DNA from: an uncultured Candidatus Saccharibacteria bacterium
GTDB taxonomy: Bacteria > Patescibacteriota > UBA1384 > XYA2-FULL-43-10 > 1-14-0-10-43-13
NCBI GenBank assembly: GCA_964543385.1
Contig: CAZIYE010000001.1
Location: forward strand, 551,123 to 615,122
Reading direction: 5' to 3'
DNA length: 64,000 nt
Shown: piece by piece, positions 58,185 to 64,000 of the stretch
Numbering within the stretch: position 1 is the stretch's first letter
Layout of the letters: every line of letters starts with the position of its first letter
Notes under the pieces: generated by a model
Told to the model about the DNA's origin: nothing
The model's database searches: none
What the model saw: the letters and a program-made list of their open reading frames with translations, nothing else
Made by a program: the position numbers and the translations under genes

Positions 58185-59525
58185 ATGGACGGACTTCAAG
58201 ATGATATCCCGCTTGAAAATGATGCTAAGAGGAGCAAAGGCTTAAGACCATTTTGGTTTTGGACAGCCATAATCTGTTTTACTGTTGCTAATTATGTTCT
58301 ATTCTATTTTTTCGCAAAATATCTCGTTCTATGGTTAATCGAAAAAATAGGATTAGTAGGCATTCTGTATATTGGTTACTATGGAATATATCCTCTTTTA
58401 ATTATATCCGCATTAACTGCATTTGCTACCTGGATTACCCTTAAAAAAAACTTTGTGGGTAAAAGGGCTGCCTATCTGTTGTTAGTTATCTATCTATCCA
58501 TCTCATGCTATGCCATTTCTTACGCACATATTGCATTGGCCAATTATCACAACCGTTTAATTGTGAAGCAAAAAGTATCTAAGTCTGTGCAGACCTATGG
58601 AGAGCACAAGATTACTAGTAATAGACAAGTTGTGAATACGGGCAACGCCAGTATTCAATCTTCATTATCGTCAAGTGGTATTTTTTCATGGGTTGGCCAT
58701 GATGACACCGAACTAGAGAAAGGAAATGTAGATAACTTAGTCACTCTTACTATTGACGGTGACAAATATAATAAAGAGAAAATCATACAAAATGCTTCAT
58801 CTGCAGTTATGTCTACGCAAAATAAGGTTTATTTTGTTAAAAATGATTTATTTGAGTATGATCTTAGAGCTAAAATCCAAAAGACTATTCTCTCAAATGT
58901 AGGGGACATCAAAAGTGAATATCAAGGAAGAATAGTATTGACTTATGGGGGCGTACTTTCTGTTTATGACACTGAGACGGGGAGACTGAATGATATTTCA
59001 GCAGCTACGGCAGATCTCCTATCCGACAATGTCTTCTATGCTGGAAAGTATATTCACACAAAGGAACCGATTGGTCTAGACATAAGGCTAAGAAGATTTG
59101 ACATTATCAGCCAAGTCAAAAAAGATGTTATAACAATTGAGAATGGCAAGCATCTTAATATGATAGCCTCAAATGATGATTATAGTGTATATACTATTAC
59201 CGATATAAATGGGACAAAATCAACATTTACTATAATCAGTAATGGTGATAACGCAGTAACATTTTCCGAAGAAGTTTCCGGCACTCCTAACTATCATGCG
59301 AAGGCTAAATTTATCGATAATATTTTGTATGTGACTGTCAGGGATGATAGTGACGGCAATAAATATAATATTGTAAAAATTGATCCAAAAACATCGCAAA
59401 AGGATATGGTATTTCACCTGTCTGACAATGGGGCAGGAAGAGAAGACTGGGATACAGATGGCCAATACCTAATTTATTCTACTGGACTTTACGGAGATCT
59501 GATTCTAAGTCCAATCGATAAATAA
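58185..59525 (+). CDS. Membrane-anchored hypothetical protein with extracytoplasmic beta-propeller-like (PD40/TolB-like) domain
   Basis: Four N-terminal TM helices. The C-terminal ...DWDTDGQYLIYSTGLYGDLILSP resembles PD40 repeats. Confidence 0.35.
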   Translation: MDGLQDDIPLENDAKRSKGLRPFWFWTAIICFTVANYVLFYFFAKYLVLWLIEKIGLVGILYIGYYGIYPLLIISALTAFATWITLKKNFVGKRAAYLLLVIYLSISCYAISYAHIALANYHNRLIVKQKVSKSVQTYGEHKITSNRQVVNTGNASIQSSLSSSGIFSWVGHDDTELEKGNVDNLVTLTIDGDKYNKEKIIQNASSAVMSTQNKVYFVKNDLFEYDLRAKIQKTILSNVGDIKSEYQGRIVLTYGGVLSVYDTETGRLNDISAATADLLSDNVFYAGKYIHTKEPIGLDIRLRRFDIISQVKKDVITIENGKHLNMIASNDDYSVYTITDINGTKSTFTIISNGDNAVTFSEEVSGTPNYHAKAKFIDNILYVTVRDDSDGNKYNIVKIDPKTSQKDMVFHLSDNGAGREDWDTDGQYLIYSTGLYGDLILSPIDK

Positions 59526-59640: not shown

Positions 59641-60195
59641 TTAGGATTTTCTCATAAACCTATTTTTCAATCCCTGAATAGACAGAGCAAGAACACCGCC
59701 TGCAAGTGCAGTATAGAGCTGAATCATACCCATCGAAATGGCAAATGGCTTTGGTAGTACATGAAGCTTGATCAATATTATGGCTATTGAATATAGAAAA
59801 GCCATTTTTAATACAGCGCCGATTATCAATCCCAGCCATTTATATTTTGCACCACGGATAGAATAACCGAGGATAAGATTTCCGAGCCAAATAAAGGGGA
59901 CCATGTAAACAAGGAATATCGAGAGTGGGCCGAAAACTAATCCCCTAGAAAGGACTCCAATGCTTGGCAGTAATAGGATTGGCAGTATCTGCCAATTTTT
60001 CAAATTTAATGCAGCAAGAACTATAGTGGCATTAACTAATATGCCGACAAGAAGCTGTGGGTGACCAAGTGAGAAGGGAATCATCAGGGCGGCAACTGAT
60101 ATAATCAGGAACTCTGCTATCTCTCTTGTTTTTACAATTTTCTGACTCTGTGTTTCTAACGCTACTGCTTTTATTTTTTCCATCGAATACTCCAA
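59641..60195 (-). CDS. Small polytopic membrane protein (possible ECF-type S-component-like substrate transporter)
   Basis: 184 aa, 5-6 TM, no diagnostic motif. Assignment is speculative. Confidence 0.3.
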   Translation of the reverse strand: MEYSMEKIKAVALETQSQKIVKTREIAEFLIISVAALMIPFSLGHPQLLVGILVNATIVLAALNLKNWQILPILLLPSIGVLSRGLVFGPLSIFLVYMVPFIWLGNLILGYSIRGAKYKWLGLIIGAVLKMAFLYSIAIILIKLHVLPKPFAISMGMIQLYTALAGGVLALSIQGLKNRFMRKS

Positions 60196-60206
60196 TTAAA
60201 TATTTC

Positions 60207-60821
60207 TTATCCTTTTAATTTCTTATAAATGAGAGCATCCGCCACCATGGATGTTGGTATTGTTGCAAAAAGGCCAATGCCTAGCGCCAAGGCTCCCAAA
60301 AGGTTCATTCCGATCAAAGTGAGACCGAAAAGAAAGAGTTGCCACTTTTTCCCTTTAGTTATCCGGCTGCTCTCTTTCATGGCGTCTATTGGATTCATTT
60401 GTTTATCAATAACTAAATATGGAGCCATAGAAAATTGAATAGCCCAGATGACACCTGGCACTACGAGTAGAACAAGCCCCGCCATAACTATTAAACTTAT
60501 TAGAATAGAAAGAACTAAAAAGCTTAGATAATGAGTTGTAGTACCCTTTAAGCTATCCAATGAGAGCTTTTTGTTGTTAGCAGCGTCTAATGATATCTTT
60601 GCCGATGCTAATGTTACAAGTGTAGAGAGAAGCAACCCTATAATCACAAAAATACTTGTTGCAGGGTCCCCAATAGGCATCTTTCTTGCAGAGGGATCTA
60701 TGCCTTGAAGTATGGCAGCTACAATCATGAAGATAACAAAAAACCAAAAATTTTTCTTCATGATTCCCCAACCTGAAGAAATTACCTCTTTTATAGAAAA
60801 ACTTTTCTCGCCCATAAACAT
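60207..60821 (-). CDS. DUF975-like membrane protein
   Basis: N-terminal SIKEVISSGWGIMKKNFWFFVIFMIVAAIL resembles the start of the DUF975 family. 5 TM. Confidence 0.35.
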   Translation of the reverse strand: MFMGEKSFSIKEVISSGWGIMKKNFWFFVIFMIVAAILQGIDPSARKMPIGDPATSIFVIIGLLLSTLVTLASAKISLDAANNKKLSLDSLKGTTTHYLSFLVLSILISLIVMAGLVLLVVPGVIWAIQFSMAPYLVIDKQMNPIDAMKESSRITKGKKWQLFLFGLTLIGMNLLGALALGIGLFATIPTSMVADALIYKKLKG

Positions 60822-60882
60822 CCTTTTTTATTTTAATTTATTATATTTTAATAATATTATAATTTAATTAACAATACTATCT

Positions 60883-61749
60883 CTATTTAAGAGATAGTAG
60901 GATAATACCTGCCACGATAAGTGCGATAGCAAAATATTGTTTTGGCGACAATTTTTCCTTGTATACAAACCAGCCATAGATACAAACTACCAAAGGACTT
61001 GCAGCTGCTATTGCTGTCATAACGCTGAGAGAATATATCTTTATTCCCTGGTAGTATGATAATACTCCCAGAACAGACAAAACAGCGATTATTAACACTG
61101 GTTTAATATTATTGTATGACGGTTTATCAACTTTCTCCTTACCTATTAGCATAATAATAAAAACTATTATAAGCATGATCGTCTCTTCTAAATACGTTGT
61201 AAGTACGGCTCCCATTTCCATTACTGGTATTCTGATAAGAAAAAAATAAATTCCCCAGCCAATTGCTGCCAATATCGCGTAATAAATCCCGCTGGATTTT
61301 TGAAAAAGATGCGAATTTTTAAAATCTCTAAAATTTATTGATATCAAAAATATACCGCAGATGATGATTGTGATAGAGATAATTTCAACCATTGAAAGAC
61401 GGTCCTTGTAAACAGCCATAGCCAGGAAGGTTGTAAATATTGTGTAAATAGATGAAACAGGGCTGACTATACCAACTTTCCCTAAATCCATTCCTTTATA
61501 AAAAAAGTATAGAGGCCAGTAGCCAATAAACGAGATGGCAACAGTGATGAGAGTATATTTGAGGGAAAAGTTTGTAAATTGCCCAGTGAACATAACAACA
61601 AAAAATAGAATAATAGACATGAAAACGCCGCGCCAAAACATAAGTTTATTTGGTCCAAAACTCTTTATGGGAACCTTTGAAATTGCGTTTCCAATGCCCA
61701 TGAATATCAGGGAAGATATTCCGAGCAATAATCCTAGCTGACTATTCAT
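60883..61749 (-). CDS. EamA/DMT-family transporter (10 TM)
   Basis: Two EamA-like 5-TM halves. 288 aa. Confidence 0.7.
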   Translation of the reverse strand: MNSQLGLLLGISSLIFMGIGNAISKVPIKSFGPNKLMFWRGVFMSIILFFVVMFTGQFTNFSLKYTLITVAISFIGYWPLYFFYKGMDLGKVGIVSPVSSIYTIFTTFLAMAVYKDRLSMVEIISITIIICGIFLISINFRDFKNSHLFQKSSGIYYAILAAIGWGIYFFLIRIPVMEMGAVLTTYLEETIMLIIVFIIMLIGKEKVDKPSYNNIKPVLIIAVLSVLGVLSYYQGIKIYSLSVMTAIAAASPLVVCIYGWFVYKEKLSPKQYFAIALIVAGIILLSLK

Positions 61750-62382
61750 TTATTTCTTGTTATCGATATTAATGTCATATTCTTTTTTCCATTCCCAGCC
61801 ATGCTTTGCAAATTCTGGTTTCAGGCGTTCCTGCAGCTCTTGTAACATTGGGATTAACTCTGGAAATTTTTGTACTGCTTTATTAGGGTATGGAGCGATC
61901 AGTTCCGGATGGTCGAAACATTTATGACCTTTGCACAACATATGGTTTATACCTTCAATTTTATCTAGAGCTTTGACGAACCTAGCCTCTTTAGTCTTTG
62001 CTTCATCATATTCACGCCAGAGTTCGGCTAATTCTTGACCGCTTGATGCTGGAGCGATTTCTCTAATTTTTGTTATTGCATCAACCTCTAGGTCATGTTT
62101 TTCTTCTGGCGACTTAATACCAAAGGCAATCAAGGAGTAATCAGTATCACCGGCTAATGCTTCAACCAAGTCATGAACAAGGGCTATTTTAACAGACTTT
62201 AGGACGTCGACGTTGAGCTTCATCTCATTGGCTGTAATAAAGGTTAGAAGGGCCAAATTCCAAGAGTGGTCGGCGCTGGACTCTTTCTTTTTCATCTCCT
62301 TGGTATGTAAAAAACGTTTTGTGGTCTTTAGTTTTTCAGATATTTCCAGAAGATCAAATAATTGTTTTATTTCCTGTGTCAT
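61750..62382 (-). CDS. HD-domain phosphohydrolase, YfbR-like (5'-deoxynucleotidase family)
   Basis: ADHSWNLALL ... IALVHDLVEALAGD matches the HD_3 / YfbR pattern (H...HD...D). Confidence 0.7.
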   Translation of the reverse strand: MTQEIKQLFDLLEISEKLKTTKRFLHTKEMKKKESSADHSWNLALLTFITANEMKLNVDVLKSVKIALVHDLVEALAGDTDYSLIAFGIKSPEEKHDLEVDAITKIREIAPASSGQELAELWREYDEAKTKEARFVKALDKIEGINHMLCKGHKCFDHPELIAPYPNKAVQKFPELIPMLQELQERLKPEFAKHGWEWKKEYDINIDNKK

Positions 62383-62548
62383 TTGTTCTTAATATAACAC
62401 AAAAATAGAGGAGTAAAAATAAAACTCTATTTTTCTTAGAACAAAAATGAAAAAAACGAAACCTTCCGCAGAAGCGGTTCTGGTGTTTGCTGTTATGCTA
62501 GATGGCGGCGATGGGGGAGCATGATTGCCCTCCCATCGCCTGATAGAA

Positions 62549-62725
62549 TCATGCAGTCACCTGCAGTGGCACATTCTGCGAGTAGGTCTTTGGAAGACCA
62601 TGACCATCGCATATTGGGCAAGTGATGTCTCTTGCATCGAATACGTTCCCGCATTCTTCGCAGAGCTTATCGCCAGTCCCAACAGTTTGCTGACGGTTGT
62701 CAGCATCGGTGTCCATATTAGGCAT
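62549..62725 (-). CDS. Small zinc-ribbon protein (58 aa; CxxC-N17-CxxC) in GC-elevated islet 3
   Basis: Strong SD AAGGAGGtcatcATG on the minus strand. Product MPNMDTDADNRQQTVGTGDKLCEECGNVFDARDITCPICDGHGLPKTYSQNVPLQVTA. Co-directional with flanking operon genes. GC-rich hairpin GGCGATGGG...CCCATCGCC downstream. Confidence 0.4.
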   Translation of the reverse strand: MPNMDTDADNRQQTVGTGDKLCEECGNVFDARDITCPICDGHGLPKTYSQNVPLQVTA

Positions 62726-62823
62726 GATGACCTCCTTCTGGTCTTCTCAAGCGCAACAGCTCAAATTCTCAAAATTATAACGTAAAAAAGACTACCAGTA
62801 TACAGTCAAAACTGTGGATAATG

Positions 62824-63141
62824 CTAAGAGTGCTTCTCGTTTATATTTTCCCAGTTCCAGTCTCTATTTTTATTCAATTCCATCTTTTGTAATATTGCTT
62901 TTTCAACATCAATATTGAGAGCTGTGGCCAGATGGAGAGTCCGCTGAATTACATCACCTAATTCCTCTGCAAAACCATCCTTGCCGTCAATGTTATTATG
63001 TCGGTATGCCTCATAAGCCTCTGAAACTTCCGAGTGGATCAAGGCAATCTTTTCAGCCACATTAATATCTTTTGGGTTTGTACCGAACCCCTTTTCTTTT
63101 GCTTGAATTAAAATTTTATTTTGCAACTCTTTAATTTCCAT
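62824..63141 (-). CDS. MazG-like nucleoside triphosphate pyrophosphohydrolase
   Basis: AEKIALIHSEVSEAYEAYR ... FAEELGDVIQRTLHLA (MazG/HisE-like EExxE/D helices). 105 aa. Confidence 0.65.
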   Translation of the reverse strand: MEIKELQNKILIQAKEKGFGTNPKDINVAEKIALIHSEVSEAYEAYRHNNIDGKDGFAEELGDVIQRTLHLATALNIDVEKAILQKMELNKNRDWNWENINEKHS

Positions 63142-63683
63142 TAGAACCTTAACTCCTTAAATGAATGTAGATCGATCCCATAGCGTTTATAGATTGCGAT
63201 CGTGCCTATATGGCCGGCATCCTTATTTTCTAACCCTAAGATCTTTAAGCCATTTTTTACTTCGGCTTCACTTTTTCCTTCGATCTCCATAATTGGCGGA
63301 ATTTTGGGCCAAGTGTCAAAGACAAATTCCATATTGAGATATCTAAATTTGTGCCTTCTATTTTCCTGATAATATTTGCCTTTAAACGGCACCTTGGAGA
63401 GTATTTGTGCAGTCCTGTCAAAGTCATCAACCTCGACCTCTATCTCCGAAGTATCACTCATGCCTTTACCAACTTTATTTTTATAGGTAATAATTGGTTT
63501 TTTGTCTCCGGCTTGACGTAGACGAATCCATTCACCCATATGGATATCATTACACGGATCGATATCAAAAATCCAACGATGCTGGAAAACCTCTGGTTCC
63601 TCAACAGCTCCCAATTTTCGTAATTTATCTTTTATTTCCTCGACATCAAGATCGAGGATCTGAGTTTCAAATTCTTTTTCCAT
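63141..63683 (-). CDS. CYTH-domain protein (triphosphate tunnel metalloenzyme; CyaB/ThTPase-like)
   Basis: EFETQILDLD...GA...WIRLRQ...ITYK...SEIEVEV...MEIEGKSEAEV. Alternating acidic beta-strands of the CYTH tunnel. Confidence 0.7.
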   Translation of the reverse strand: MEKEFETQILDLDVEEIKDKLRKLGAVEEPEVFQHRWIFDIDPCNDIHMGEWIRLRQAGDKKPIITYKNKVGKGMSDTSEIEVEVDDFDRTAQILSKVPFKGKYYQENRRHKFRYLNMEFVFDTWPKIPPIMEIEGKSEAEVKNGLKILGLENKDAGHIGTIAIYKRYGIDLHSFKELRF

Positions 63684-63686
63684 AAT

Positions 63687-64000
63687 TCATAAATATTCTT
63701 TTAGCTCTTCTAGTCTATCAATAATTATATCAGGCTCGTAAGGCAAGAACTCTTCTCTAGAGGCAAAACCGGTTGTTACTGCACAAGATGAGACACCTGA
63801 TTCTTTTGCTGCCAGTACATCGTTTACATGATCACCTATATACATGGCCTCTGATTTATTAACTCCAAGTTCATTAATACATTGGATAATTCTTTGAGCT
63901 TTGCTGTGTCCAGAATTTGTCTCATAAACAGCAGAGAATTGGATGTCACAATTATTTTTATTTTTTATGACATCATCAATAATTTCTTTTGTGTTGCCAG
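63687..64000 (-). CDS. HAD-superfamily hydrolase (C-terminal part; start lies beyond the window)
   Basis: Minus-strand translation ...YIGDHVNDVLAAKESGV... (HAD motif III/IV). Stop overlaps the CYTH start (TGAattATG). Confidence 0.6.
   Translation of the reverse strand, partial: GNTKEIIDDVIKNKNNCDIQFSAVYETNSGHSKAQRIIQCINELGVNKSEAMYIGDHVNDVLAAKESGVSSCAVTTGFASREEFLPYEPDIIIDRLEELKEYL

What the first reader, a model, noticed from the sequence alone, without database searches (positions are those of the whole stretch)
61750..64000. Tight minus-strand operon of four different nucleotide phosphohydrolase folds (HAD, CYTH, MazG-like, YfbR-like HD) plus a Zn-ribbon mini-protein and an EamA transporter
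The CYTH and MazG genes overlap (ATGA), and the HAD gene's stop sits 3 nt upstream of the CYTH start, where the ORF-track CYTH coordinates make the two look overlapping. HD and EamA are also directly adjacent. The operon combines a triphosphate-tunnel enzyme, an NTP pyrophosphohydrolase, a 5'-deoxynucleotidase-type HD hydrolase and a HAD phosphatase, with a possible metabolite exporter. This looks like a dedicated NTP to NMP to nucleoside conversion and export, or a house-cleaning or salvage module. That would be relevant for an organism that probably cannot make nucleotides de novo. Alternatively it could be a nucleotide-depletion or signal-degrading system, for example for (p)ppGpp or cyclic or modified nucleotides. 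The specific five-gene combination is not a described system.
Basis: partly seen in the sequence, partly recalled or inferred. Interest (0 to 1): 0.5.

Follow-up and report, generated by a model that had tools for sequence, protein, structure and literature searches.

The report
Variable nucleotide-hydrolase gene island in CPR bacterium
The genes and their enzyme folds are real, but they are several transcription units at one end of a larger gene island. In related tiny (CPR) bacteria this island keeps swapping nucleotide-cleaving enzymes around a stable nucleotidase-plus-transporter pair, so it is probably nucleotide clean-up or recycling and not a new fixed system.

Summary
All the genes exist and all the fold assignments hold: HAD (cut by the window end), CYTH, small MazG-like, Zn-ribbon, YfbR-like HD_3 and EamA.

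Three corrections:
- The CYTH/MazG overlap is TAATG (1 nt), not ATGA.
- The 98-nt and 166-nt gaps around the Zn-ribbon gene carry terminator-like hairpins, and the second also carries a conserved extended -10. A single tight operon is therefore unlikely. The likely units are HAD-CYTH-MazG, Zn alone, and HD-EamA.
- The cluster continues beyond the window as EamA-EamA-NUDIX-HD_3/GNAT-HAD.

In about a dozen related Patescibacteria contigs the same chromosomal slot, next to PPDK-RecX-RecA, holds a changing set of NUDIX, CYTH, MazG-like, HAD, NT5C, HD_4 and HD_3 genes. Only the HD_3-EamA pair is constant. The five-gene combination recurs nowhere else in the contigs seen that span the slot. The orthologous MazG-like gene sits beside dCMP deaminase-ThyX-Tmk-dUTPase in another CPR genome.

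The CYTH protein has hydrolase motifs, not cyclase motifs, and it carries the ThTPase-type WxRxR signature.

My best reading is a fluid (deoxy)nucleotide turnover and sanitation island. There is no support for an anti-phage defence system or for cAMP signalling. Interest is modest.

The parts
63687..64000 (-). C-terminal 103 aa of a 213-aa HAD-IA phosphatase. The gene start lies beyond the window end.
   Evidence: Pfam Hydrolase_like 3.5e-11 and HAD_2 5e-9. The full gene is on contig L001 9356-9997, with motif I DFDLT and motif IV GDHVND. The nearest families are PpaX/Gph-type, all below the equivalog cut-offs. The nearest solved structures are COG0546 phosphatases.
63141..63683 (-). CYTH / triphosphate-tunnel metalloenzyme, 180 aa. 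Predicted to be a hydrolase, not a cyclase.
   Evidence: Pfam CYTH 1.3e-6. The family profile hits SaTTM at 3.7e-14. The AF2 model has pLDDT 94.5 and TM 0.74 to SaTTM. Motifs are E4xE6xQ8, invariant W52xR54xR56 and E133xE135, read against Vogt 2021, PMC8233210.
62824..63141 (-). Small all-alpha MazG-like NTP pyrophosphohydrolase, 105 aa. It overlaps the CYTH stop by 1 nt (TAATG).
   Evidence: Pfam MazG 22.8 bits. Motifs E37xxE40 and E59ExxD63 are present. The AF2 model best matches iMazG, DCTPP1, BcMazG, SSO3215 and YpjD. The family is 65-87% identical across CPR. The orthologue lies next to dUTPase/Tmk/ThyX in L088.
62784..62807 (-). Weak hairpin plus T-run just after the MazG stop (possible terminator). 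A TATAAT lies downstream of it.
   Evidence: Fold, which is not better than shuffles. The stem is kept with changes on both arms in L003 (GACUG..UAGUC versus GACCC..GGGUU).
62549..62725 (-). Zn-ribbon mini-protein, 58 aa (CxxC-N10-CxxC), with a strong AAGGAGG Shine-Dalgarno sequence. GC-rich (about 50% against 37%).
   Evidence: Homologues sit in the same slot in L086 and L094. A longer variant with two CxxC pairs sits there in L003, L087 and L083.
62442..62540 (-). Two hairpins after the Zn gene. One is a strong GC-rich stem (62507-62540). The other is the conserved CCGCUUCUGCGG stem (62466-62477) followed by a U-run. Together they look like an intrinsic terminator.
   Evidence: Fold z = -2.6. 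The CCGCTTCnGCGGA core is invariant in 6 genomes.
62391..62399 (-). Extended -10-like element TGTTATATT, 8 nt upstream of the HD ATG, with no Shine-Dalgarno sequence. It is a putative promoter for a leaderless HD-EamA transcript.
   Evidence: Sequence. Conserved in 6 genomes. Function is inferred and was not measured.
61750..62382 (-). YfbR/HDDC2-type HD_3 phosphohydrolase, 210 aa. Predicted to be a 5'-(deoxy)nucleotidase.
   Evidence: Pfam HD_3 3e-34. PDB matches are HDDC2 2e-17, 3kh1, 1xx7 and yeast YGL101W. The H39, H70-D71-x-x-E74 and D139 motif is read from the sequence. Characterised members of this family are dNMP nucleotidases (PMC8475336, PMC5098729).
60883..61749 (-). EamA/DMT transporter, 288 aa, with two EamA repeats. 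It directly abuts the HD stop (TAAATG).
   Evidence: Pfam EamA 5e-38, two stretches. An HD_3-EamA pair is found in 11 related contigs.
60875..60899 (-). Terminator-like hairpin at the end of the EamA gene.
   Evidence: z = -2.8.
60207..60815 (-). DUF975/YciC-like membrane protein. It travels with HD-EamA in several relatives.
   Evidence: Pfam DUF975 3e-16. Synteny.
59641..60183 (-). 180-aa multi-pass membrane protein with no family match. It is the last gene of the island, before the converging 446-aa ORF (58185-59525) and the PPDK gene.
   Evidence: No Pfam or NCBIfam match. Conserved in L003, L083, L086, L095 and L096.

Best explanation
The window shows the downstream half of an island of about 8 kb in a Patescibacteria (CPR) genome. 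The island changes in composition between relatives. It lies between cell-wall genes (Ddl, abhydrolase, LD-carboxypeptidase) and PPDK-RecX-RecA.

**Gene order and transcription units.** In this genome the island reads EamA-EamA-NUDIX-HD_3/GNAT-HAD-CYTH-MazG | Zn-ribbon | HD_3-EamA | DUF975-membrane protein. It is probably three or four transcription units, not one operon.

**Stable and variable parts.** The stable core across relatives is the YfbR-type HD_3 hydrolase plus an EamA transporter. The other phosphohydrolases are accessory genes that come and go.

**Most likely function.** I infer turnover and sanitation of the (deoxy)nucleotide pool in an organism that lives on scavenged nucleic-acid precursors. 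The proposed steps are:
- NUDIX (NudI/NudG-like) and the small MazG-like enzyme split surplus or non-canonical (d)NTPs, probably pyrimidine dNTPs, into (d)NMP plus PPi.
- The CYTH enzyme is a two-metal triphosphatase that removes a terminal phosphate from a triphosphate. Its conserved Trp suggests the substrate carries an aromatic group.
- HD_3, and possibly HAD, dephosphorylate (d)NMPs to nucleosides.
- EamA moves a nucleoside, a base or a related small molecule across the membrane.

**What is shown and what is inferred.** Shown: the folds, the intact catalytic motifs, the gene order, the partial synteny and the non-coding signals. Inferred: every substrate, the order of the steps, the direction of transport and any co-regulation.
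For: - **Folds and motifs:**
- **Extension of the cluster beyond the window:**
- **Same slot, different hydrolase sets in relatives:**
  - L086: NUDIX-HD/GNAT-HAD-unknown-CYTH-Zn-HD-EamA.
  - L083: HD/GNAT-HAD-CYTH-CYTH-Zn-HD-EamA.
  - L003.
  - L084: HAD/NUDIX fusion, CYTH, NUDIX, NUDIX, CYTH, a different MazG-like gene, NUDIX-NUDIX.
  - L097: NUDIX-HD_4-EamA, HAD, NT5C-HD-EamA-HD_3.
  - L095, L096, L098.
- **Enrichment near this CYTH family over 80 species-level loci:** NUDIX lies within 2 kb in 15 loci (9-fold, binomial p 6e-7). HD_3 lies within 2 kb in 4 loci (p 1e-3).
- **MazG context elsewhere:** the orthologue (73% identity) sits in a dCMP deaminase-kinase-ThyX-Tmk-dUTPase-MazG cluster. 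Another orthologue lies near NDK and DnaE.
- **NUDIX:** the nearest solved structures are NudI and the CTP pyrophosphohydrolase NudG.
- **Characterised HD_3 proteins:** these are dNMP nucleotidases, and YjjG (HAD_2) is a house-cleaning nucleotidase (PMC8475336, PMC5098729, PMC4491880).
- **Rationale:** salvage lets modified nucleosides enter the dNTP pool, which makes sanitising enzymes necessary (PMC12887539).
- **Separate transcription units:**
Against: - No biochemical or expression data exist for any of these proteins.
- None reaches an NCBIfam equivalog cut-off, so the substrates are guesses.
- HAD-IA, NUDIX and EamA families act on many non-nucleotide substrates.
- The island also picks up unrelated genes: CutA1, SDR, chorismate mutase, TerC, an aminotransferase and GNAT. 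It may be a general accessory-gene slot.
- The genome is about 93% coding, with co-directional runs of 5 to 9 genes. Adjacency alone is therefore weak evidence.
- The enrichment test counts loci that are not phylogenetically independent, and it uses HMMs built from the island itself.
- The CPR copies of CYTH have ExExQ in place of the hallmark ExExK. The consequence of this is unknown.
Confidence: 0.5

Rival explanations
1. The slot is an accessory-gene hotspot with no pathway behind it. Under this reading, the stretch between the cell-wall genes and PPDK-RecA simply tolerates insertions and deletions. Small hydrolases and transporters are the commonest dispensable genes in CPR genomes, so they pile up there without working together.
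For: - Island content is very variable and includes non-nucleotide genes: CutA1, SDR, CM_2, TerC and an aminotransferase.
- The MazG-like orthologue lives elsewhere in other CPR genomes.
- Predicted terminators and promoters separate the units.
- The genome is dense, with long co-directional runs.
Against: - Different nucleotide-hydrolase families were recruited to the slot independently: two unrelated MazG-like genes, NT5C and HD_4, and multiple NUDIX genes.
- CYTH-NUDIX and CYTH-HD_3 adjacency also occurs in distant lineages that lack this slot, namely Clostridia, Actinobacteria and Peribacteria.
- HAD-CYTH-MazG are translationally coupled (3-nt gap, 1-nt overlap), and the same junctions recur in L003, L083, L087 and L094.
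- No flanking repeats or mobile-element genes were found.
Confidence: 0.3
2. It is an anti-phage or conflict system. Under this reading it depletes nucleotides or degrades a nucleotide signal such as (p)ppGpp or cyclic nucleotides, and the variable content reflects an arms race.
For: - Rapid turnover of island content resembles a defence island.
- The NUDIX protein matches the PADLOC candidate PDC-S07 at 1e-15.
- MazG-like and HD enzymes reshape dNTP pools in phages. MazZ is a weak hit, 7e-3.
Against: - None of the other nine proteins matches any PADLOC model.
- There is no sensor, nuclease, ATPase, TIR, SIR2 or toxin partner in the island.
- The MazG-like family is a highly conserved housekeeping-type protein, with 75% mean column identity across CPR, and it is linked to thymidylate genes elsewhere.
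- The region has no DNA similarity to phages.
- HD_3 is the mononucleotidase type. It is not a dNTP triphosphohydrolase and not an HD-GYP.
Confidence: 0.07
3. It is a cofactor-triphosphate module, for example for thiamine triphosphate, and not a nucleotide module. Under this reading the CYTH enzyme is a prokaryotic ThTPase-like hydrolase. HAD and NUDIX would then act on thiamine or another cofactor phosphate, and EamA would carry the vitamin.
For: W52-x-R54-x-R56 is invariant in this CYTH family. It aligns with A54 of SaTTM. According to Vogt 2021, that is the position whose aromatic residue defines ThTPases, and the motif otherwise occurs only in the plant TTM1/2 cluster.
Against: - Overall sequence and fold are closest to the archaeal TTMs (SaTTM, PH1012, Pfu-838710). 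ThTPases match far less well: no profile hit at E <= 1e-3, and TM 0.36-0.59.
- No thiamine genes were seen in the contig segments examined around the island.
- The neighbours HD_3 and MazG-like point to deoxynucleotides.
- The Trp could equally stack on a nucleobase.
Confidence: 0.06
4. It is a cAMP signalling unit. Under this reading the CYTH protein is the class IV (CyaB-type) adenylate cyclase that many database names give it, and HD acts as the phosphodiesterase.
For: Source annotations read 'adenylate cyclase class 2 / class IV'. TIGR00318 cyaB scores 39.7 bits, below its cut-off of 57.95.
Against: All three AC-IV determinants from Vogt 2021 are absent:
- There is no room for the HF motif, because ExEx starts at residue 4.
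- The first Arg of xRxR is retained.
- ExE is retained, where cyclases have ExA.

In addition, the closest characterised relative, SaTTM, makes no cyclic nucleotides. HD_3 is a monoesterase family.
Confidence: 0.02

Closest known systems
E. coli house-cleaning and deoxynucleotide-turnover enzymes: YfbR (HD_3), YjjG (HAD-IA), NudG/NudI (NUDIX), MazG
   Same: The same four protein superfamilies. [quoted passage not shown] The island NUDIX is closest to NudI and NudG.
   Different: - In E. coli these genes are scattered (my own knowledge). Here they are clustered.
- All similarities fall below the equivalog cut-offs.
- The island adds a CYTH enzyme, a GNAT fusion, a Zn-ribbon protein and up to three DMT transporters.
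- That MazG and NudG supply dCMP in the Weiss pathway is recalled from memory. I could not check it, because the paper is not held.
SaTTM (Saci_0718), an archaeal triphosphate tunnel metalloenzyme
   Same: It is the best match by sequence (3.7e-14) and by structure (TM 0.74). It has the same tunnel fold, the ExE motif and both Arg residues. SaTTM hydrolyses PPPi, and about 19-fold less well ATP and GTP to NDP plus Pi. It has no cyclase activity.
   Different: Identity is only about 25%. The window protein has Trp where SaTTM has Ala54 (the ThTPase-type WxRxR motif), and it has ExExQ where SaTTM has ExExK.
Small all-alpha MazG-type dNTP pyrophosphohydrolases (integron iMazG, human/mouse DCTPP1 = RS21-C6, Bacillus YpjD/BcMazG, phage MazZ)
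   Same: A four-helix fold of about 100 aa with the ExxE...EExxD metal motif. These are the top structural matches.
   Different: - Sequence similarity is remote (E 1e-4 to 1e-2).
- The CPR family is a distinct, very conserved clade.
- Its substrate is unknown. Pyrimidine dNTP is suggested only by the neighbourhood in L088.
HDDC2 / YfbR / T. brucei HD-domain 5'-nucleotidase (Pfam HD_3)
   Same: An HD_3 domain with H, HD, E and D residues in place. HDDC2 matches at 2e-17. Characterised members dephosphorylate (d)NMPs.
   Different: The NCBIfam 5'-deoxynucleotidase model scores 25.7 bits against a cut-off of 122. Here the gene is paired with an EamA transporter. A paralogue is fused to a GNAT domain.
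Phage Z-genome dNTP-pool cluster (MazZ + DatZ + PurZ)
   Same: It combines a MazG-like pyrophosphohydrolase with an HD-domain hydrolase to reshape the dNTP pool. MazZ is a weak hit.
   Different: There is no PurZ and no DatZ-type HD. The context is chromosomal, with no phage similarity.

Membership tests
CYTH / triphosphate tunnel metalloenzyme superfamily | Eight-stranded beta-barrel tunnel fold | tested here: met
   AF2 model pLDDT 94.5. Foldseek TM 0.74 to SaTTM, 0.71-0.73 to PH1012 and Pfu-838710, and 0.62-0.70 to the AC-IV structures.
CYTH / triphosphate tunnel metalloenzyme superfamily | N-terminal ExExK hallmark motif | tested here: inconclusive
   E4 and E6 are invariant. The Lys is Gln in the window protein and in most CPR copies, and Lys in some archaeal members of the same family. 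The effect of Lys to Gln is unknown.
CYTH / triphosphate tunnel metalloenzyme superfamily | ExE on strand beta-8 and the paired Arg residues that bind the beta and gamma phosphates | tested here: met
   E133, E135, R54 and R56 are invariant in 21 sequences. Criteria are from PMC8233210.
Class IV (CyaB) adenylate cyclase | HFxxxxExExK extension, first Arg of xRxR replaced by a small residue, and ExA in place of ExE | tested here: not met
   Only 3 residues precede E4, R54 is retained and E135 is retained. TIGR00318 scores 39.7 against a cut-off of 57.95.
Thiamine triphosphatase (ThTPase) subfamily | W/YxRxR aromatic stacking motif | tested here: met
   W52-I-R54-L-R56 is invariant. W52 aligns with SaTTM A54.
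Thiamine triphosphatase (ThTPase) subfamily | Overall sequence and structure grouping with ThTPases, and ThTP hydrolysis | tested here: not met
   No ThTPase among the profile hits at E <= 1e-3. TM to the query is only 0.36-0.59. Enzyme activity cannot be tested here.
MazG-type all-alpha NTP pyrophosphohydrolase | Four-helix fold with the ExxE...EExxD metal-binding motif | tested here: met
   E37xxE40 and E59-E60-x-x-D63. E41, E59, E60 and D63 are invariant in the 20-sequence alignment, and E38 is in at least 90%. The AF2 model has four helices. The 31 best Foldseek hits are all members of this superfamily. Pfam MazG scores 22.8 against a cut-off of 22.
YfbR-type 5'-deoxynucleotidase (HD_3) | HD_3 domain with H...HD..E...D ligands | tested here: met
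   Pfam HD_3 3e-34. H39, H70-D71, E74 and D139 are read from the sequence. HDDC2 matches at 2e-17.
YfbR-type 5'-deoxynucleotidase (HD_3) | Equivalog-level similarity to YfbR, and dNMP-specific activity | tested here: not met
   NF003009 scores 25.7 bits against a cut-off of 122. Activity cannot be tested with these tools.
HAD superfamily phosphatase | Motifs I-IV (DxDxT, S/T, K, GDxxxD) | tested here: met
   The full-length gene on L001 has DFDLT, VSGNT and GDHVND. Pfam HAD_2/Hydrolase. Only motifs III and IV lie inside the window.
EamA / drug-metabolite transporter | Two EamA repeats (10 TM) | tested here: met
   Pfam EamA 5e-38, two stretches. The substrate was not tested.
Single operon (one transcription unit) | No internal terminators or promoters, with short gaps throughout | tested here: not met
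   The gaps are 98 nt and 166 nt, each with a hairpin and T-run. The second gap also has a conserved extended -10 before HD. These are predictions only. No transcript data exist.
Conserved gene cluster (synteny in relatives) | The same five genes together in close relatives | tested here: not met
   MazG-like is absent in L086, L083 and L003. CYTH is absent in L095-L098. Only HD_3-EamA is constant, along with HAD-CYTH in the closest set.
Known anti-phage defence systems (PADLOC) | Match of the components to defence-system models | tested here: not met
   Only NUDIX matches, to candidate PDC-S07. The other nine proteins have no hit.

The most novel reading that the evidence does not exclude
The constant HD_3-EamA pair, with its own conserved and apparently leaderless promoter, may be the nucleoside gateway of these CPR bacteria. 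In this reading, (d)NMPs released from scavenged host or environmental DNA and RNA are dephosphorylated by the HD_3 nucleotidase, and the nucleosides cross the membrane through a DMT-family carrier. The accessory hydrolases around the pair (NUDIX, MazG-like, a WxRxR-type CYTH, NT5C, HD_4) would then be exchanged between strains to cope with whatever modified nucleotides their hosts and phages supply. That would assign a DMT transporter to nucleoside traffic. It would also give a genetic handle on how organisms that lack nucleotide biosynthesis obtain and police their precursors.
Probability: 0.15. Interest if true: 0.65.

Novelty: new variant of a known kind. Interest (0 to 1): 0.33.

Why it matters
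CPR bacteria are thought to depend on imported nucleic-acid precursors (general knowledge, not tested here). How they keep that pool clean and balanced is largely unknown.

This locus gives three useful things:
- A concrete, recurring genomic address, next to PPDK-RecX-RecA, where such functions concentrate and diversify.
- A stable nucleotidase-transporter pair that can be tested directly.
- A widespread CPR/DPANN CYTH family that is routinely mis-named 'adenylate cyclase', yet carries hydrolase motifs plus the ThTPase-type Trp.

None of the individual enzymes is unexpected, and no new mechanism is implied. The value lies in annotation and in generating hypotheses.

Tried and rejected
- **Structured RNA in the gaps.** There are no tRNAs and no Rfam hits at gathering score. 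A permissive Rfam scan of 59.5-64 kb gave only a chance-level Yfr10 hit, E 0.8. I therefore read the conserved hairpins as terminators.
- **Mobile element or prophage.** There is no DNA match in the phage collection. No flanking direct or inverted repeats stand out. There are no integrase or transposase genes on the contig.
- **Defence system.** PADLOC was negative apart from a generic NUDIX candidate.
- **Generic promoter/terminator scan.** The promoter count was not above the shuffles, and the scan missed the conserved elements. I relied instead on cross-genome conservation.
- **Metagenome scan with the HD protein.** It returned only 3 loci.
- **Literature.** I found no paper describing a CYTH/NUDIX/HD/MazG cluster or CPR house-cleaning genes. 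Weiss 2007 could not be read. The role of the Lys in ExExK could not be extracted from PMC4641920.
- **MazG in L084.** I considered whether it is the same gene relocated. I rejected this because BLASTP gives E 0.18, and it is a different MazG-like subfamily.

Full report
**1. What is in the sequence**

On the minus strand, the last 4.4 kb of the window carries these ORFs:
- the C-terminal 103 codons of a HAD gene (63687..64000, open to the window end);
- CYTH (63141..63683, 180 aa);
- a small MazG-like gene (62824..63141, 105 aa);
- a 58-aa Zn-ribbon ORF (62549..62725), preceded by AAGGAGG;
- an HD gene (61750..62382, 210 aa);
- an EamA gene (60883..61749, 288 aa);
- a DUF975 membrane protein;
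- a 180-aa membrane protein with no family match.

HD_3 scores 3e-34 (YfbR-like 2e-9) and CYTH 1.3e-6. MazG scores 1.1e-4, which is 22.8 bits against a cut-off of 22. HAD_2/Hydrolase_like and EamA (5e-38) also match. Zn_ribbon_3 scores 6e-5, below its cut-off.

The two weaker calls were checked by structure.
- The CYTH model has pLDDT 94.5 and superposes on the archaeal triphosphatase SaTTM with TM 0.74.
- The MazG model has pLDDT 91.8 and is a four-helix protein. Its 31 best PDB matches are all all-alpha NTP pyrophosphohydrolase-type chains, including integron iMazG, DCTPP1, BcMazG, SSO3215, YpjD, MazZ, HisE-type enzymes and DR2231.

Catalytic motifs are intact in all of the enzymes (sequences):
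- MazG-like: ExxE...EExxD.
- HD: H, HD-x-x-E, D.
- HAD: DxDxT and GDxxxD, read in the full-length gene.
- NUDIX: the Nudix box, in the gene that lies beyond the window.

**2. Corrections to the observation**

The CYTH/MazG junction, however, is TAATG (1-nt overlap) and not ATGA.
- The cluster is not uniformly tight. MazG to Zn is 98 nt and Zn to HD is 166 nt.
- After the Zn gene there is a strong GC-rich hairpin, then a CCGCUUCUGCGG hairpin followed by a U-run (z = -2.6).
- Eight nucleotides before the HD ATG lies TGTTATATT, an extended -10, with no Shine-Dalgarno sequence.
- These non-coding elements are nearly invariant in six genomes whose CYTH proteins are only 64-100% identical. That makes them better conserved than the Zn ORF between them.
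- A weaker hairpin plus T-run follows MazG. It keeps its pairing through changes on both arms in L003.
- A further hairpin closes the EamA gene.

The most economical reading is three or four units: ...HAD-CYTH-MazG, then the Zn-ribbon gene alone, then HD-EamA (probably leaderless), then DUF975 plus the membrane protein. All of this is prediction. No transcript data were available.

**3. The cluster is larger than the window**

The exact CYTH protein is found on longer public contigs. Window coordinate equals 73684 minus L001 coordinate.

Upstream of HAD lie EamA (310 aa), EamA (307 aa), NUDIX (137 aa) and an HD_3-GNAT fusion (357 aa). Before these come LD-carboxypeptidase, an abhydrolase and a double-length Ddl. 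Downstream of the island lie a converging 446-aa ORF and then PPDK, RecX, RecA and FtsK.

The island therefore holds six phosphohydrolase genes of five folds, plus three DMT transporters.

**4. Organism and families**

The CYTH homologues are from CPR2, Berkelbacteria, Howlettbacteria, Parcubacteria and DPANN archaea. The HD homologues are from the 'Patescibacteria group'. This is a CPR bacterium.

None of the ten island proteins reaches an NCBIfam equivalog cut-off. They are members of known superfamilies with unproven specificity.

**5. Synteny test**

I combined one genome-collection scan with the CYTH family (80 species-level loci), eleven look-ups of encoding contigs, and local tblastn and iterated HMM searches. 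The slot next to PPDK-RecX-RecA reads as follows.

| Contig | Identity to window | Gene order |
|---|---|---|
| window / L001 | CYTH 100% | EamA EamA NUDIX HD/GNAT HAD CYTH MazG ZnA HD EamA DUF975 M180 |
| L087 | CYTH 92%, 1.6 kb | unknown CYTH MazG ZnB |
| L086 | CYTH 89% | NUDIX HD/GNAT HAD unk170 CYTH ZnA HD EamA DUF975 M180 |
| L083 | CYTH 83% | EamA CutA1 SDR HD/GNAT HAD CYTH CYTH ZnB-like HD EamA DUF975 M180 |
| L003 | CYTH 82% | NUDIX HD/GNAT HAD CYTH ZnB HD EamA M180 |
| L084 | CYTH 71% | HAD-NUDIX fusion, unk174, CYTH, NUDIX, NUDIX, CYTH, a different MazG-like (BLASTP E 0.18 to the window's), NUDIX-NUDIX; no HD or EamA |
| L094 | CYTH 64% | unknown CYTH MazG ZnA HD |
| L095 | HD 72% | CutA1 HD EamA DUF975 M180 |
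| L096 | HD 62% | HD_3, GNAT, HAD, aminotransferase, HD EamA |
| L097 | HD 58% | NUDIX HD_4 EamA ... HAD ... NT5C HD EamA HD_3 |
| L098 | HD 54% | EamA CM_2 TerC EamA HD HD |

L004 (CPR2), L019 and L092 also keep HD next to EamA.

Three conclusions follow.
- The five-gene combination is not seen in any other contig that spans the slot.
- MazG and CYTH are accessory genes.
- The stable core is HD_3-EamA, and in the nearest relatives also HD/GNAT-HAD-CYTH.

The theme, however, is strikingly persistent. The same slot repeatedly acquires different families of nucleotide hydrolases.

**6. Beyond this lineage**

Over the 80 CYTH loci, NUDIX genes lie within 2 kb of CYTH in 15 loci. That is 5.8 per 100 kb against 0.64 further away (binomial p 6e-7). 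HD_3 lies within 2 kb in 4 loci (p 1e-3). HAD and EamA each do so in 3 loci, and this MazG family in none.

The caveats are that the loci are not phylogenetically independent and that the HMMs were built locally.

In the 64-kb window these HMMs hit nothing outside the island.

**7. Clues to specificity**

*(a) CYTH.* Vogt et al. 2021 give three determinants.
- True class IV cyclases need HFxxxxExExK, a small residue in place of the first Arg of xRxR, and ExA. The window protein has only three residues before E4, keeps R54 and R56, and keeps E133xE135. It should therefore be a two-metal hydrolase like SaTTM.
- SaTTM cleaves PPPi, and about 19-fold less well ATP and GTP, and it makes no cNMP.
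- Unexpectedly, the family has an invariant Trp at the position of SaTTM Ala54. This gives the W/YxRxR motif that the same paper treats as the ThTPase signature. I take it as a hint that the substrate carries an aromatic group. Overall sequence and fold are nevertheless closest to the archaeal TTMs.
- The CPR copies also have ExExQ in place of ExExK.

*(b) MazG-like.* The family is extremely conserved across CPR, at 65-87% identity. In another CPR genome the 73%-identical orthologue ends a dCMP deaminase-kinase-ThyX-Tmk-dUTPase run. In a Berkelbacteria genome it lies near NDK and DnaE. That links it to deoxynucleotide metabolism, probably pyrimidine.

*(c) NUDIX.* The closest matches are NudI and the CTP pyrophosphohydrolase NudG.

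*(d) HD_3.* The closest solved relatives are HDDC2, 3kh1, a Pyrococcus OxsA-like protein and yeast YGL101W. The characterised members, E. coli YfbR and the T. brucei enzyme, are metal-dependent (d)NMP nucleotidases.

*(e) HAD.* It is a generic COG0546 (PpaX/Gph-like) phosphatase.

**8. Most likely mechanism**

This is inferred. The island is a toolbox for (deoxy)nucleotide turnover and sanitation.
- Pyrophosphohydrolases (NUDIX, MazG-like) take unwanted (d)NTPs to (d)NMPs.
- CYTH removes a terminal phosphate from a triphosphate.
- HD_3, and perhaps HAD, take (d)NMPs to nucleosides.
- A DMT carrier moves a product or a precursor across the membrane.

The rationale is that organisms relying on salvage admit modified nucleosides into their dNTP pool and need sanitising enzymes (PMC12887539).

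Shown: the folds, motifs, gene order, partial synteny, enrichment and non-coding signals. Not shown: any substrate, the order of reactions, the direction of transport, or co-expression. My confidence in the theme is about 0.5.

**9. Rivals**

- **Accessory-gene hotspot without pathway coupling (0.3).** This is the serious rival. The slot also takes up CutA1, SDR, chorismate mutase, TerC and an aminotransferase. The genome is 93% coding with long co-directional runs.
- **Defence or nucleotide depletion (0.07).** It has only a generic NUDIX hit in PADLOC. There are no sensor or effector partners and no phage similarity.
- **Cofactor-triphosphate (ThTP) reading (0.06).** It rests on the single Trp.
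- **cAMP signalling (0.02).** It is contradicted by all three cyclase determinants.

**10. Novelty and verdict**

Every enzyme is a new member of a known superfamily. I found no description of this island or of a CYTH/NUDIX/HD/MazG cluster in the searchable literature.

It is best classed as a new variant of a known kind, namely house-cleaning and nucleotidase genes that are here clustered, fluid and anchored by a nucleotidase-transporter pair.

The 'tight operon' and 'five-gene system' parts of the interpretation are not. Interest is modest, at about 0.33. The most useful products are:
- the HD_3-EamA hypothesis;
- the corrected annotation of a widespread CPR/DPANN 'adenylate cyclase' family as a WxRxR-type triphosphatase;
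- the conserved terminator and leaderless-promoter signals.

Noticed in passing
window 62383-62823, and the same slot in L086 3400-3573, L094 1473-1652, L003 2468-2701, L087 1215-1430 and L083 4877-5095: The slot upstream of HD always holds a small, GC-rich (about 50% against 37%), Cys-rich Zn-ribbon ORF with a strong Shine-Dalgarno sequence. It comes in two forms: 58 aa with one CxxC..CxxC unit, and 72-77 aa with an extra N-terminal CxxC pair. The form present does not follow the CYTH phylogeny: the relative with 92% CYTH identity has the long form, and the relative with 64% has the short form. This suggests cassette-like exchange between conserved flanks.
   Followed up: partly
window 62383-62480, aligned with L003, L083, L086, L087 and L094: The non-coding sequence before HD is better conserved than the neighbouring ORF. 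It has an invariant ACCGCTTCnGCGGA hairpin plus T-run, then TTTACTCC...TGTGTTATATT ending 7-8 nt before the ATG, with no Shine-Dalgarno sequence. This implies a leaderless HD-EamA transcript. It has no Rfam match.
   Followed up: partly
window 63141-63683 and alignment A1: This CPR/DPANN CYTH family is widely labelled 'adenylate cyclase class 2/IV' in source databases. It lacks all the cyclase determinants, carries an invariant ThTPase-type WxRxR motif, and in CPR copies has ExExQ in place of ExExK.
   Followed up: yes
L001 8320-9393 (beyond the window end); L096 3255-3839 and 3915-4247: There is an HD_3 nucleotidase-like domain fused to a GNAT acetyltransferase (357 aa), conserved in L003, L083 and L086. 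The same two domains are separate neighbouring genes in L096. The acetyl acceptor is unknown.
   Followed up: no
L086 2215-2727, L084 7493-8017, L094 62-502, L087 16-246: An unknown 146-174-aa ORF with no Pfam or NCBIfam match sits directly upstream of CYTH in four relatives. It is absent from the window genome. The L094 and L087 copies are visibly related to each other, but a local search with the L086 copy found no other member.
   Followed up: partly
L001 1499-3859 (beyond the window end): A 786-aa protein made of two complete D-Ala-D-Ala ligase units in tandem. It is also present, at 71% identity, in L019.
   Followed up: no
L088 2435-6318 and L089: In another CPR genome the orthologous MazG-like gene closes a compact run of dCMP deaminase, AAA_17/18 kinase, ThyX, thymidylate kinase, dUTPase and MazG-like, next to ribosomal protein genes. 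None of the other genes of this run has a tblastn match in the 64-kb window.
   Followed up: partly
L083, L095, L096, L098: CutA1 (divalent-cation tolerance protein) recurs in or beside the island in four relatives, directly upstream of HD in L095. It is absent from the window.
   Followed up: no
window 59641-60183: A conserved 180-aa multi-pass membrane protein with no family match ends the island in at least six genomes.
   Followed up: no
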